A program made the position numbers and the translations under genes. The notes beneath the pieces were generated by a model. That model was given only the letters and a program-made list of their open reading frames with translations, was not told where the DNA came from and searched no databases. From Candidatus Moraniibacteriota bacterium (GTDB lineage: Bacteria; Patescibacteriota; Minisyncoccia; Moranbacterales; UBA11712), in NCBI GenBank assembly GCA_030679895.1, contig JAUXSN010000047.1:65328-129327 (forward strand): a stretch of 64,000 nt of DNA, written 5' to 3'. The stretch's first letter is position 1. Each line of letters starts with the position of its first letter. Below, one piece after another: positions 15,280 to 15,981 of the stretch.

Positions 15280-15981
15280 TTAAATTTTCTTTGATTTTTT
15301 GATCAATTCCATTTTTTCAGATTTCTTCAGCTTTTTGATCCGGGCTTCTTCCCGAGAGGCCGAGGATTGATCTTTGAACTTTCGCGAATATACCAGCCTG
15401 ACCGGCCGGCGGGCCGAAGTATATTTCGAGCCCAGCTTCGAGTCGTTATGCTCGGCAATTCTCCGTCCAAGATCCGTGGTGATCCCGGTGTATAAAGTTT
15501 TGTCAGCGCATTCAAGGATATATAAATAATACAGTTTTTTAATATTTGATTTTGGAGCGGGTTGAGCGCGCATTTTGGAAAAAAATTTTTCAGGATCGAT
15601 GAAATTTTTGAAATTTTTGATCGCCACTTTTCCCCGGCTGATGTCGATATGCAGGTGCGGACCTTTTGTCAGTTTTCCGGTGTTTCCCGTCAGGCCCAAA
15701 ATTGCTCCTTTTTTGTATCTCCCGACTTTCGAAAAACTCTTGAGATGCATGAACCGCAGGATGACTTTCCCATAGCGCGAATCAACGAGTGCGGCATGAA
15801 CCGTATTTCCCCCTTCAGGAAAATTTCCAGCGACAACAATTTCGCAATCGTCCGGCGCATAGACCGCCGTCCCCTCGGGCACGATATAGTCCGCGCCGAG
15901 ATGACGCGCGGAATAGAAAGTCTTTTCGCCGAATCTATATCCCCGCTTGATCCTATTCCAGTTTTTCAAAGGATACCGCAT
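15280..15981 (-). CDS. fusion protein: N-terminal M23 (LytM) peptidase domain plus C-terminal GIY-YIG nuclease domain (YhbQ/UPF0213 type)
   Basis: M23 motifs [11 protein letters not shown] and [14 protein letters not shown] motif [32 protein letters not shown]...[15 protein letters not shown]. One uninterrupted ORF. Confidence 0.75.
   Translation of the reverse strand: [233 protein letters not shown]

What the first reader, a model, noticed from the sequence alone, without database searches (positions are those of the whole stretch)
15280..15981. M23 (LytM) peptidase domain fused to a GIY-YIG (YhbQ-type) nuclease domain
A single 233-aa ORF carries all M23 metallopeptidase motifs ([19 protein letters not shown]). 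It is followed without interruption by a textbook UPF0213/GIY-YIG domain ([29 protein letters not shown]…[15 protein letters not shown]). That domain normally occurs as a small stand-alone protein.

A peptidoglycan endopeptidase fused to a structure-specific nuclease is an unusual combination. Possible explanations are a two-activity effector (wall penetration plus DNA nicking), a gene-fusion artefact, or a frameshift in the assembly. The gene is GC-richer than its surroundings and is flanked by the palindromic repeat family.
Basis: seen in the sequence. Interest (0 to 1): 0.55.

Follow-up and report, generated by a model that had tools for sequence, protein, structure and literature searches.

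The report
Real M23 peptidase–GIY-YIG nuclease fusion
A small uncultured (Patescibacteria) bacterium really does encode one protein that joins a cell-wall-cutting enzyme to a small DNA-repair-type nuclease, but the join looks like an evolutionary accident (a lost stop codon between two neighbouring genes) rather than a purpose-built two-headed weapon.

Summary
The 233-aa ORF (window 15280-15981, minus strand) is real. It carries a complete lysostaphin-type M23 domain and a complete Slx1/YhbQ-type GIY-YIG domain, both above Pfam thresholds with all catalytic residues intact. It is not an assembly artefact: an independent assembly is 100% identical, and about 12 distinct fused homologues (65-77% identity) occur in other metagenomes, with both halves under purifying selection. 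Both parts are normally stand-alone genes in Patescibacteria. The origin of the join can be read from the sequence. In unfused relatives the M23 stop codon (TAA) aligns with Gln140 (CAA) of the linker, 'PAP' is former 3'-UTR, and a ~270-nt GIY-YIG module sits between that point and a conserved downstream motif. AlphaFold gives two confident domains on a floppy linker. The same GIY-YIG subfamily is occasionally fused to many other partners, mostly DNA-repair enzymes, so M23 is the outlier. There is no signal peptide, secretion context or immunity gene, so the 'wall-penetration plus DNA-nicking effector' reading is unsupported. Unexpectedly, the M23 core, not the nuclease, is exchanged between near-identical strains. 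The GC and 'flanking repeat' claims do not hold: the upstream palindrome is M23's own promoter/5'-UTR module. Ordinary to moderately interesting.

The parts
15280..15981 (-). Complete M23-GIY-YIG fusion ORF (233 aa, ATG...TAA)
   Evidence: identical in independent assembly L138
15580..15981 (-). M23 (lysostaphin/LytM-type) metallopeptidase domain, aa 1-134; no leader peptide; Zn ligands H27/D31/H111, catalytic H79/H109
   Evidence: Pfam and NCBIfam; PDB sequence hits; AF2 pLDDT 94-98; Foldseek hit to lysostaphin catalytic domain 4qpb, TM 0.84, rmsd 2.3 A; invariant residues
15600..15920 (-). M23 core segment that differs (45-75% nt identity) from the otherwise 98-100% identical sister strain L005: an exchanged allele
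   Evidence: sliding identity; dS 1.96 for M23 vs 0.18 for GIY-YIG in the same gene pair; different nearest alleles
15532..15579 (-). Linker, aa 135-150 ([16 protein letters not shown]): M23 tail + former stop codon + former 3'-UTR + former N-terminus of the GIY-YIG gene; low-confidence, flexible
   Evidence: codon alignment with unfused L090/L013 and stand-alone L012 GIY-YIG; pLDDT ~68; 9-codon gap in short-linker homologues
15562..15564 (-). Gln140 codon CAA, which aligns with the TAA stop codon of the unfused M23 gene in L090
15280..15552 (-). GIY-YIG module (~270 nt) absent from the 'empty-site' relatives L090/L013; includes the Slx1/YhbQ-type nuclease domain (aa 151-228) and its stop codon
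   Evidence: filled/empty-site alignment; Pfam GIY-YIG; 1ywl/1zg2; 97-100% nt identical to strain L005 over 15380-15560
15982..16041 (-). Promoter-proximal/5'-UTR palindromic module (TGTTATGTAACA ... TTCGCCAAGACTTAGCCTTAA ... ATG)
   Evidence: the same architecture precedes unfused M23 in L013 and precedes RecQ (5885-5909) and a methyltransferase (12873-12932) in the window
16041..16096 (-). Two overlapping sigma-70-like promoter matches upstream of the module (TTGGCA-16-TATATT; TTGAAA-17-TAGGAT with TG)
   Evidence: consensus match only
14655..15203 (-). LigT/2H-phosphoesterase gene immediately downstream; absent at this position in sister strain L005, but adjacent to an unfused M23 in L097
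14545..14591 (-). Conserved 3'-flank motif CTCAAATTCCGGCGGGGGAAAG. In L005 it follows the GIY-YIG stop directly; in L090/L013 it follows the M23 stop. It marks the old end of the M23 unit

Best explanation
This is a genuine, single-origin, vertically inherited gene fusion in a Patescibacteria (Moranbacteria/Parcubacteria-like) lineage. A leaderless ~140-aa lysostaphin-type M23 peptidoglycan endopeptidase gene had the lineage's small (~85-aa) Slx1/YhbQ-type GIY-YIG nuclease gene sitting a few nucleotides downstream in the same reading frame. Loss of the M23 stop codon (TAA -> CAA, now Gln140) and of the nuclease's own start codon (ATG -> ATT) turned the pair into one ORF, and the 16-aa linker is the former stop, 3'-UTR and N-terminal leader. 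The protein is made from M23's own promoter/5'-UTR module as one cytoplasmic polypeptide, with two independently folded, catalytically competent domains on a flexible tether. Shown: the fusion is real, both domains are intact and under purifying selection, the junction history, and the flexibility of the linker. Inferred: the two activities (Zn-dependent cleavage of peptidoglycan cross-links; structure- or damage-specific DNA nicking as in Slx1/YhbQ relatives) work independently. On this reading the fusion provides only co-expression, and it is one more case of the known tendency of Slx1-type GIY-YIG genes to end up fused to whatever lies next to them.
For: Real and intact. Recurrent: 10 fused clusters at 65-77% identity, plus fused loci L001/L091, L005, L009, L010, L105, L110. 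Selection: dN/dS is 0.11-0.25 for M23 and 0.07-0.25 for GIY-YIG. Both parts are normally separate. Most M23 orthologues are 135-150 aa. About 67 of 76 GIY-YIG genes in species-representative genomes are stand-alone ~80-90 aa proteins starting MYYLYIL, and 132 of the best 150 representatives are under 150 aa. Junction: the L090 stop TAA aligns with CAA, 'CCT GCA CCT' aligns with 'CCC GCC CCA', homology resumes at CTCGAAT(T/A)CCGGCGGGG after the GIY-YIG stop, and L012's stand-alone gene starts ATG AAA AAA AAT ATG TAT TAT against ATT AAA AAA CTG TAT TAT in the fusion. Single origin: the linker is homologous across all fused forms, and the short forms lack 9 codons. Vertical inheritance: within the conserved block DUF2062-PDDEXK | M23-GIY | (hemerythrin)(Zincin_1) | NifS-NifU, GIY-YIG identity (74-91%) tracks NifS/NifU/hemerythrin (75-92%). 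Independent domains: AF2 pLDDT is 94-98 per domain, ~68 in the linker, with pTM 0.66. M23 is a functional outlier among partners, which are MGMT, AlkD-like, ITPase, NUDIX, Vsr, RNase H, HhH, SprT/YgjP, SpoU, CYTH and others. Literature: prokaryotic Slx1-like GIY-YIG domains are typically stand-alone, with sporadic fusions attributed to the domain's evolutionary mobility (PMC1564403).
Against: The fusion has persisted, with every catalytic residue intact, across species whose NifS proteins differ by 8-15%. That is compatible with, but does not require, a selective benefit of physical coupling. M23 and GIY-YIG are linked (within 0.5-1 kb, same strand) in three unfused genomes (L002, L012, L090), far more often than chance for ~1-Mb genomes. 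This could reflect a functional link rather than mere history. How a leaderless M23 reaches peptidoglycan is unknown, so its true substrate here is not established. The direction of the filled/empty-site difference (insertion vs precise loss) cannot be proven from the sequences.
Confidence: 0.6

Rival explanations
1. The GIY-YIG module is a selfish, homing-endonuclease-like cassette. It inserts just downstream of host genes, hitch-hikes on their expression (here by translational fusion), and by cutting nearby DNA makes the M23 locus a recombination hot spot.
For: There is a clean filled/empty-site polymorphism with conserved flanks. The same module occupies three different slots in one conserved neighbourhood: fused to M23 in L001, L009, L010 and L105; after hemerythrin in L012; after Zincin_1 in L090 and L075. 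It is fused N- or C-terminally to over 15 unrelated partner families. A multi-breakpoint mosaic is centred on the gene in two near-identical strains. M23 is much more divergent than its neighbours in 6 of 7 fused-fused locus pairs, against 1 of 4 independent unfused pairs (small, non-independent sample). PMC1564403 raises the same possibility for Slx1-type domains.
Against: There is no DNA-binding or targeting domain, only the ~80-aa catalytic core. No conserved non-coding ends were found among ~80 copies. No near-identical copies occur in distant genomes: the best non-strain match is 83% aa, and GIY-YIG divergence tracks the neighbouring genes, so there is no sign of recent horizontal spread. 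In the strain pair it is the M23 core that was replaced, not the GIY-YIG, and M23 alleles are also exchanged where no GIY-YIG is attached (L006-L100, L109-L113). Slot variation can equally be explained by insertion or loss of the hemerythrin and Zincin_1 genes. HEases are placed in the UvrC+ lineage, not the Slx1 lineage (PMC1564403).
Confidence: 0.2
2. The fusion is a functionally coupled bifunctional enzyme: the reader's 'wall penetration plus DNA nicking' effector. For example, it might lyse host or neighbour cells and cut their DNA for nucleotide scavenging or DNA uptake by an episymbiotic CPR cell.
For: Both activities are retained under purifying selection in one polypeptide. This M23 family is clearly of the peptidoglycan-hydrolase type, since relatives carry a GH25 lysozyme domain and the fold matches lysostaphin. 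Horizontal exchange and hypervariability of the M23 core would fit an arms-race target. M23-GIY-YIG linkage is seen in some unfused genomes.
Against: The N-terminus is highly charged ([20 protein letters not shown]), with no signal peptide, lipobox or TM segment. There is no secretion-system or immunity gene nearby, only ordinary chromosomal genes. There is no PADLOC match, and no phage carries the fusion. The nuclease is the lineage's ordinary, near-universal stand-alone YhbQ-type gene, whose other partners are cytoplasmic repair enzymes. The linker is flexible with no predicted interface. The variable part is N-terminal and the constant part C-terminal, the reverse of polymorphic toxins.
Confidence: 0.1
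3. The fusion is an assembly or sequencing artefact (frameshift or chimeric join) of two separate genes.
For: Both domains normally occur as separate genes, and the junction lies in an A/T-rich homopolymer-prone stretch (GAAAAATTTTTTTCCAAAATG).
Against: An independent assembly is identical. The sister strain L005 has the same architecture with different linker codons. About 12 distinct fused sequences exist, from ENA, JGI, NCBI and Logan sources. The linker is in frame in all of them, and both halves are under purifying selection.
Confidence: 0.02

Closest known systems
Bacterial Slx1-like / YhbQ / UPF0213 GIY-YIG proteins (e.g. EF2693, PDB 1ywl; BH0048, PDB 1zg2)
   Same: The C-terminal 80 aa align end-to-end with them (E 7e-15 and 5e-14). 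It has the same minimal catalytic core, the same conserved Tyr/Tyr/Arg/Glu-His/Glu set, and lacks the C-terminal Asn typical of the UvrC/homing-endonuclease lineage (PMC1564403).
   Different: Those proteins are stand-alone ~90-100 aa. Here the domain has lost its own start codon and is translated as the C-terminus of a peptidase.
Lysostaphin / LytM / LytU catalytic domains (MEROPS family M23, subfamily B)
   Same: The motifs HxxxD and HxH plus the catalytic His residues are present. The fold match is TM 0.80-0.84, rmsd 2.3-2.9 A. Relatives are fused to GH25 lysozyme.
   Different: There is no signal peptide, pro-region or cell-wall-targeting (SH3b/LysM) domain. It is a bare 134-aa catalytic domain starting at residue 1, followed by a nuclease.
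Sporadic fusions of Slx1-type GIY-YIG domains described by Dunin-Horkawicz, Feder & Bujnicki 2006 (SPOUT methyltransferase fusion, insertion into HsdR, MutS fusion in plants)
   Same: The same nuclease lineage is attached N- or C-terminally to unrelated proteins, with close homologues of the partner lacking the domain. The authors attribute many such cases to the domain's evolutionary mobility rather than to function.
   Different: A peptidase partner was not reported there ('peptidase' does not occur in the paper), nor in any paper found here. In this case the molecular route (stop-codon loss between in-frame neighbours) can be read from empty-site relatives.
Free-standing GIY-YIG homing endonuclease genes of phages (Seg family, I-TevI relatives)
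   Same: It is a small GIY-YIG gene found in alternative intergenic slots between conserved genes, with presence/absence polymorphism and a recombination mosaic around it.
   Different: It has no DNA-binding domain, belongs to the Slx1 lineage rather than the UvrC/HEase lineage, and shows no evidence of recent horizontal spread. Cleavage of an empty site is untested.

Membership tests
Peptidase family M23 (lysostaphin/LytM type) | Sequence match to the family profile above the curated threshold | tested here: met
   PF01551 46.5 bits vs cut-off 28.7, aa 26-121; PDB hits to ShyA, LytU, lysostaphin and LytM
Peptidase family M23 (lysostaphin/LytM type) | Zn-binding HxxxD and HxH motifs plus the two catalytic His residues | tested here: met
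   H27-L-G-A-D31, H79, H109-L-H111; all invariant in 11 fused and 27 unfused homologues
Peptidase family M23 (lysostaphin/LytM type) | M23 beta-sheet fold | tested here: met
   AF2 pLDDT 94-98; Foldseek TM 0.84 / rmsd 2.3 A to the lysostaphin catalytic domain 4qpb
Peptidase family M23 (lysostaphin/LytM type) | Access to peptidoglycan (signal peptide or other export route) and actual peptidoglycan cleavage | not testable with these tools
   The sequence shows no signal peptide (charged N-terminus). All ~140-aa orthologues are equally leaderless. Activity needs an enzyme assay.
Slx1/YhbQ-type GIY-YIG nucleases (UPF0213) | GIY-YIG profile match and catalytic Tyr, Tyr, Arg, Glu residues | tested here: met
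   PF01541 58.9 bits vs cut-off 22.6; Y151/Y154, Y164-x-G166, R173/R174, E177-H178 and E212 invariant
Slx1/YhbQ-type GIY-YIG nucleases (UPF0213) | Closest to UPF0213 members and lacking the C-terminal Asn of the UvrC/HEase lineage | tested here: met
   Best PDB sequence hits are 1ywl and 1zg2; no conserved Asn after E212 in alignment A1; criterion taken from PMC1564403
Slx1/YhbQ-type GIY-YIG nucleases (UPF0213) | Stand-alone minimal architecture (typical of prokaryotic members) | tested here: not met
   It is fused to M23. Stand-alone is the norm in relatives. This is a typical feature, not a strictly defining one.
GIY-YIG homing endonucleases (free-standing or intron-encoded) | Separate DNA-binding/targeting domain (NUMOD, Zn-finger, HTH) | tested here: not met
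   Only the catalytic core is present, with no further Pfam domain; the model shows nothing beyond aa 233
GIY-YIG homing endonucleases (free-standing or intron-encoded) | Presence/absence polymorphism at a defined site with conserved flanks | tested here: met
   L005/WIN are filled and L090/L013 are empty
GIY-YIG homing endonucleases (free-standing or intron-encoded) | Element more similar between genomes than the host flanks (horizontal spread) | tested here: not met
   GIY-YIG identity tracks NifS/NifU/hemerythrin, and there are no near-identical copies in distant genomes
GIY-YIG homing endonucleases (free-standing or intron-encoded) | Cleavage of the empty target site | not testable with these tools
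   Needs an in-vitro cleavage assay
Secreted polymorphic toxin / effector with C-terminal nuclease | N-terminal secretion or trafficking domain, variable C-terminal toxin, adjacent immunity gene | tested here: not met
   There is no leader or trafficking domain (sequence). The neighbours are LigT, DUF3175, hydrolases and a 331-aa protein with no Pfam match. The variable part is the N-terminal M23, not the C-terminal nuclease. No PADLOC hit.

The most novel reading that the evidence does not exclude
The YhbQ/Slx1-type GIY-YIG gene of Patescibacteria is a still-active selfish cassette. It relocates between intergenic slots and survives by translationally fusing to host genes, and its nuclease activity drives the local recombination that swaps M23 alleles between lineages. 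This would be a homing-like system built on the minimal Slx1-type core, without any DNA-binding domain.
Probability: 0.15. Interest if true: 0.65.

Novelty: new variant of a known kind. Interest (0 to 1): 0.33.

Why it matters
The M23-GIY-YIG architecture is not described in the papers searched, so it adds a new partner to the list of Slx1-type GIY-YIG fusions. Its main value is as a clean, sequence-resolved example of how a fusion protein is born: in-frame neighbours, TAA to CAA, with the 3'-UTR becoming the linker. It is also a caution against reading function into domain fusions in compact CPR genomes. If the nuclease and peptidase did cooperate, that would bear on how episymbiotic CPR bacteria obtain DNA and nucleotides, but nothing here supports that. 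The by-product observation may be the more interesting lead. The leaderless M23 gene behaves as an exchangeable cassette between lineages: 68% identity inside a 99%-identical background, and 77-79% identity between genomes whose neighbouring genes are only ~45% identical. That pattern hints at diversifying selection on a cell-wall hydrolase in these organisms.

Tried and rejected
1. Assembly artefact or frameshift: rejected.

2. GC anomaly or foreign island: rejected. The gene's GC is within 1 sd of the window and the context is ordinary chromosomal genes.

3. Palindromic repeats as mobile-element flanks: rejected. The upstream copy is a promoter/5'-UTR module also found before unfused M23 (L013, L099, L008) and before RecQ and a methyltransferase.

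4. Further GIY-YIG or M23 copies in the window: none found.

5. Polyphyly of fused proteins in the M23 tree as evidence for repeated GIY-YIG acquisition: first considered, then rejected. The incongruence is explained by replacement of the M23 core, while linker homology indicates a single origin.

6. Conserved cassette termini around GIY-YIG genes: none.

7. Phage or defence origin: no phage carries the fusion, PHROGs hits cover only M23, and there is no PADLOC hit.

8. Literature on YhbQ function, on GIY-YIG in Patescibacteria, and on M23 + GIY-YIG: nothing specific was found beyond PMC1564403 and a review sentence placing YhbQ/YazA in the Slx1 family.

9. An internal start codon giving a separate nuclease: Met137 exists in the window protein but is not conserved (absent in P0001, P0002 and all short-linker forms).

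10. The first Biopython bootstrap run timed out and was replaced by a custom NJ bootstrap. Those trees are short-alignment NJ trees and only the well-supported nodes were used.
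Full report
**Observation.** The window has one uninterrupted ORF on the minus strand, 15280-15981 (233 aa). Pfam finds Peptidase_M23 (aa 26-121; 46.5 bits, cut-off 28.7) and GIY-YIG (aa 151-223; 58.9 bits, cut-off 22.6). NCBIfam places the first half near MepM/ShyA-type DD-endopeptidases, far below their equivalog cut-offs. The best matches among solved structures are the UPF0213 proteins EF2693 (1ywl) and BH0048 (1zg2) for the C-terminal half, and ShyA, LytU and lysostaphin for the N-terminal half. 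The protein starts directly with the M23 domain. Its N-terminus ([20 protein letters not shown]) is highly charged and has no hydrophobic leader, as seen directly in the sequence. There is no second copy of either domain in the 64-kb window.

**Not an artefact.** An independent Logan assembly of run SRR13727519 encodes the identical protein and is 100% identical to the window over 3,708 nt. A homologue search returned ten fused clusters at 65-77% identity from JGI, ENA, NCBI and Logan sources. One is annotated by NCBI as 'GIY-YIG nuclease family protein [Parcubacteria group bacterium]'. Scans of species-representative genomes and metagenome contigs added fused loci L009, L010, L105 and L110.

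In an alignment of 11 fused proteins every catalytic residue of both domains is invariant. Pairwise dN/dS is 0.11-0.25 for M23 and 0.07-0.25 for GIY-YIG.

**Side claims.** The gene's GC content (45.7%) is within one standard deviation of the window (42.9 +/- 4.3%). One neighbour is richer and the other poorer.

The 'palindromic repeat' directly upstream (15982-16041) has the gene-sense architecture [TGTTAyGTAACA] - ~8 nt - [TTCGCyAAGG-N5-CCTTAGCGAA] - 7-12 nt - ATG. It lies just downstream of sigma-70-like promoter matches. The same module precedes RecQ (start 5873) and a methyltransferase (start 12864) in the window. It also precedes the unfused M23 gene of another species (L013), with hairpin copies before M23 in L099 and L008. 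It is M23's own 5' regulatory region, not a mobile-element flank.

**Both halves are normally separate genes.** Most M23 orthologues (58-79% identity) are leaderless proteins of 135-150 aa. More distant relatives carry the same N-terminal M23 fused to a GH25 lysozyme, which supports a peptidoglycan-hydrolase role.

The GIY-YIG half belongs to a very conserved Patescibacteria-wide subfamily (motif CADKTLYT; 63-82% identity across Paceibacterota, Moraniibacteriota, Gracilibacteria, Magasanikbacteria and others). In species-representative genomes about 67 of 76 copies are stand-alone ORFs of 80-90 aa starting MYYLYIL. In an exhaustive search of 1.84 billion representatives the family has 10,440 clusters. 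Of the best 150, 132 are shorter than 150 aa, and the M23 fusion is a single 50%-identity cluster.

The longer members are fused, N- or C-terminally, to MGMT, AlkD-like DNA_alkylation, ITPase, NUDIX, Vsr, RNase H, HhH/pol-lambda-finger, YgjP/SprT, SpoU, CYTH, CDGSH, DUF1294 and DUF429. Most of these partners act on DNA repair or nucleotide sanitation, so M23 is the functional outlier. The list contained nothing shorter than 128 aa, so it over-represents fusions.

**How the fusion arose.** Codon-level comparison with unfused relatives resolves the junction.

- Unfused L090 ends …TCT AAA ATA CAT ACT TAA CCT GCA CCT | CGAATACCGGCGGGGAA….
- Fused L005 reads …TCC AAA ATA CAT ACT CAA CCC GCC CCA | AAA TCC AAT ATT AAA AAA CTG TAT TAT …(GIY-YIG)… TAG AACT | CGAATTCCGGCGGGGGAAAC.
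- The window has the same CAA CCC GCT CCA AAA TCA AAT ATT AAA AAA CTG.

So the old stop codon is now Gln140 (window 15562-15564), and 'PAP' is former 3'-UTR. A module of about 270 nt (window 15552 to 15280) lies between that point and a conserved motif that in empty-site genomes (L090, L013) follows the M23 stop directly.

The stand-alone GIY-YIG of L012 begins ATG AAA AAA AAT ATG TAT TAT. This matches ATT AAA AAA CTG TAT TAT in the fusion, so the nuclease's own start codon has been lost. The two ORFs were already in frame, and one substitution in the stop codon was enough to join them.

All fused proteins share this linker. A subgroup lacks nine codons of it. Together these points indicate a single origin.

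**Inheritance.** A subset of loci share the block DUF2062-PDDEXK | M23(+/-GIY) | (hemerythrin) (Zincin_1) | NifS-NifU. Within it, GIY-YIG identity between fused genomes (74-91%) tracks NifS (85-92%), NifU (75-88%) and hemerythrin (80%). The fusion has therefore been inherited vertically across species.

In the same block M23 is unfused with no GIY-YIG nearby in L013, L095/96 and L104. In L012 the nuclease gene sits after hemerythrin. In L090 and L075 it sits after Zincin_1, overlapping that gene's stop. The hemerythrin and Zincin_1 genes themselves come and go between GIY-YIG and NifS. Slot variation may therefore reflect movement of the GIY-YIG gene or of its small neighbours, and the data do not decide between these.

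**An unexpected mosaic.** L005 (the contig carrying P0001) is a near-identical strain of the window organism, with 94.4% nt identity over 3.3 kb and neighbouring proteins 96-99% identical. A sliding comparison with the window gives this profile:

| Window region | nt identity | Content |
|---|---|---|
| 16700-16050 | 98-100% | upstream flank |
| 16050-15920 | 80-93% | promoter module and M23 5' end |
| 15920-15600 | 45-75% | M23 core |
| 15560-15380 | 97-100% | GIY-YIG core |
| 15380-15300 | ~88-91% | GIY-YIG tail |
| below ~15294 | none | downstream of the stop codon |

Synonymous divergence is 1.96 for M23 but 0.18 for GIY-YIG within the same gene pair. The window's M23 core is closest to the unfused L002 (80% nt), and L005's is closest to the unfused L008/L006 (84-86% nt).

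This replacement explains why fused proteins appear in three places in an M23 tree (P0001 with the unfused P0041/P0032, 99% bootstrap) while their GIY-YIG halves pair at 93%. It is the M23 core that was replaced, not the nuclease that was re-acquired.

More generally, M23 identity has a floor of about 63-72% whatever the relatedness of the genomes:
- 68% where neighbours are 99% identical (WIN-L005).
- 77-79% where neighbours are 44-46% identical (WIN-L004, L109-L113).
- 66% against 84% for neighbours in the unfused pair L006-L100.

M23 alleles thus appear to be exchanged horizontally, with or without an attached GIY-YIG. The window also carries a LigT gene (14655-15203) between the fusion and the conserved 3' motif (14545-14591). 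This gene is absent in L005, but it lies next to an unfused M23 in L097.

**Structure.** AlphaFold2 on a 58-sequence alignment gives mean pLDDT 92. Both domains score 94-98, the linker (about aa 138-150) scores ~68, and pTM is only 0.66. This is the signature of two well-folded domains without a fixed mutual orientation. The M23 part superposes on the lysostaphin and LytM catalytic domains (TM 0.80-0.84, rmsd 2.3-2.9 A).

**Context and other libraries.** The neighbourhood is ordinary chromosomal CPR sequence: RecQ, MFS/HlyD, MarR, methyltransferase, hydrolases, DUF3175, LigT, RNase Y, iPGM, UDG and IF-2. There is no PADLOC match. PHROGs matches cover only the M23 half. No phage record carries the fusion.

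**Literature.** Dunin-Horkawicz et al. 2006 (PMC1564403) describe prokaryotic Slx1-like GIY-YIG domains as typically stand-alone, with sporadic fusions (SPOUT methyltransferase, insertion into HsdR). They suggest that many such fusions reflect the domain's evolutionary mobility rather than function. A peptidase partner is not mentioned. No paper in the library links M23 and GIY-YIG in one protein.

**Interpretation.** The best-supported account (confidence about 0.6) is a real, old, single-origin fusion produced by stop-codon loss between in-frame neighbours. It encodes two independent activities that are merely co-expressed.

- A homing-like, still-selfish GIY-YIG cassette (about 0.2) is suggested by the filled/empty site, the alternative slots and the local mosaic. 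It is weakened by the absence of a targeting domain, of conserved ends and of any sign of recent horizontal spread.
- A coupled wall-plus-DNA effector (about 0.1) lacks any secretion, immunity or interface evidence.
- An artefact is essentially excluded.

**Novelty.** The architecture seems undescribed, but it is a new variant of a known phenomenon (promiscuous Slx1-type GIY-YIG fusions). Interest is modest. The cassette-like exchange of the leaderless M23 gene and the shared RecQ/M23 upstream module are the leads most worth following.

Noticed in passing
window 5885-5909, 12873-12932, 15982-16041 (also L013 2955-3000, L099 1061-1077, L008 46-62, L005 3516-3532): A shared promoter/5'-UTR module, [TGTTAyGTAACA] ~8 nt [TTCGCyAAGG-N5-CCTTAGCGAA] 7-12 nt ATG, precedes RecQ, a methyltransferase and M23-GIY-YIG in the window, and precedes M23 or other small genes in related genomes. 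None of these genes has an obvious Shine-Dalgarno sequence. It may be an operator or translational hairpin defining a small regulon that includes RecQ.
   Followed up: partly
window 15600-15920 vs L005 2700-3020: Two strains that are 98-100% identical in the flanks carry M23 cores only 45-75% identical (dS ~2). Across loci, M23 identity stays at ~63-79% whether neighbouring genes are 99% or 44% identical. The leaderless M23 gene behaves as a horizontally exchanged allele cassette.
   Followed up: partly
window 14592-15279 (LigT gene 14655-15203): About 700 bp carrying a LigT/2H-phosphoesterase gene is present in the window but absent at this position in sister strain L005. It is bracketed by fragments of the hairpin family (…cgctaagctttgctaatgttgaacctaag… and …cctaaagttgaactttagg…). 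L097 has an unfused M23 directly followed by a LigT homologue.
   Followed up: partly
L001 5711-6492, L009, L010, L105, L012 3451-3855, L090 2952-3329: Small hemerythrin and Zincin_1 (DUF1025) genes are variably present between M23(-GIY-YIG) and NifS/NifU in genomes whose NifS proteins are 85-92% identical. The region just downstream of M23 is a hot spot for gain and loss of single small genes.
   Followed up: partly
window 14568-14584 and 12155-12171 (minus strand); L005 ~3332-3350; L090, L013 just after the M23 stop; L078 upstream of GIY-YIG: A conserved motif, (CTCR)AATTCCGGCGGGGGAAA, recurs downstream of stop codons of minus-strand genes and marks the right boundary of the GIY-YIG filled/empty site. 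It contains a short CCGGA-N8-TCCGG hairpin, but on the gene-sense strand it has no U-run, so it is not a canonical terminator.
   Followed up: partly
P0071-P0120, P0156-P0262: The Patescibacteria YhbQ-type GIY-YIG subfamily is occasionally fused to MGMT, AlkD-like, ITPase, NUDIX, Vsr, RNase H, HhH, SprT/YgjP, SpoU, CYTH, CDGSH, DUF1294 and DUF429. This is a strongly repair- and nucleotide-sanitation-biased partner set that could serve as guilt-by-association evidence for the function of this uncharacterised nuclease family.
   Followed up: partly
window 16104-17099 (+): A 331-aa ORF is transcribed divergently from M23-GIY-YIG and shares its intergenic region. It has no Pfam match, yet it is conserved at 98-100% nt in strain L005 and has relatively high GC (49.9%).
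   Followed up: no
window 23524-24006 (-): A 160-aa HNH endonuclease ORF (PF01844/PF13392) lies between YdjC and a uracil-DNA glycosylase gene. It may be a free-standing homing-type nuclease.
   Followed up: no
L006/L007/L103 2328-2585: A more divergent 85-aa GIY-YIG gene lies 2.4 kb upstream of an unfused M23, with a HinfI-type restriction enzyme and a DNA methyltransferase inserted between them.
   Followed up: no
output: The word-indexed homologue search listed no protein shorter than 128 aa for a 233-aa query, so short stand-alone GIY-YIG proteins were missing and fusions looked far more common than they are. The exhaustive search and the genome scan corrected this.
   Followed up: yes
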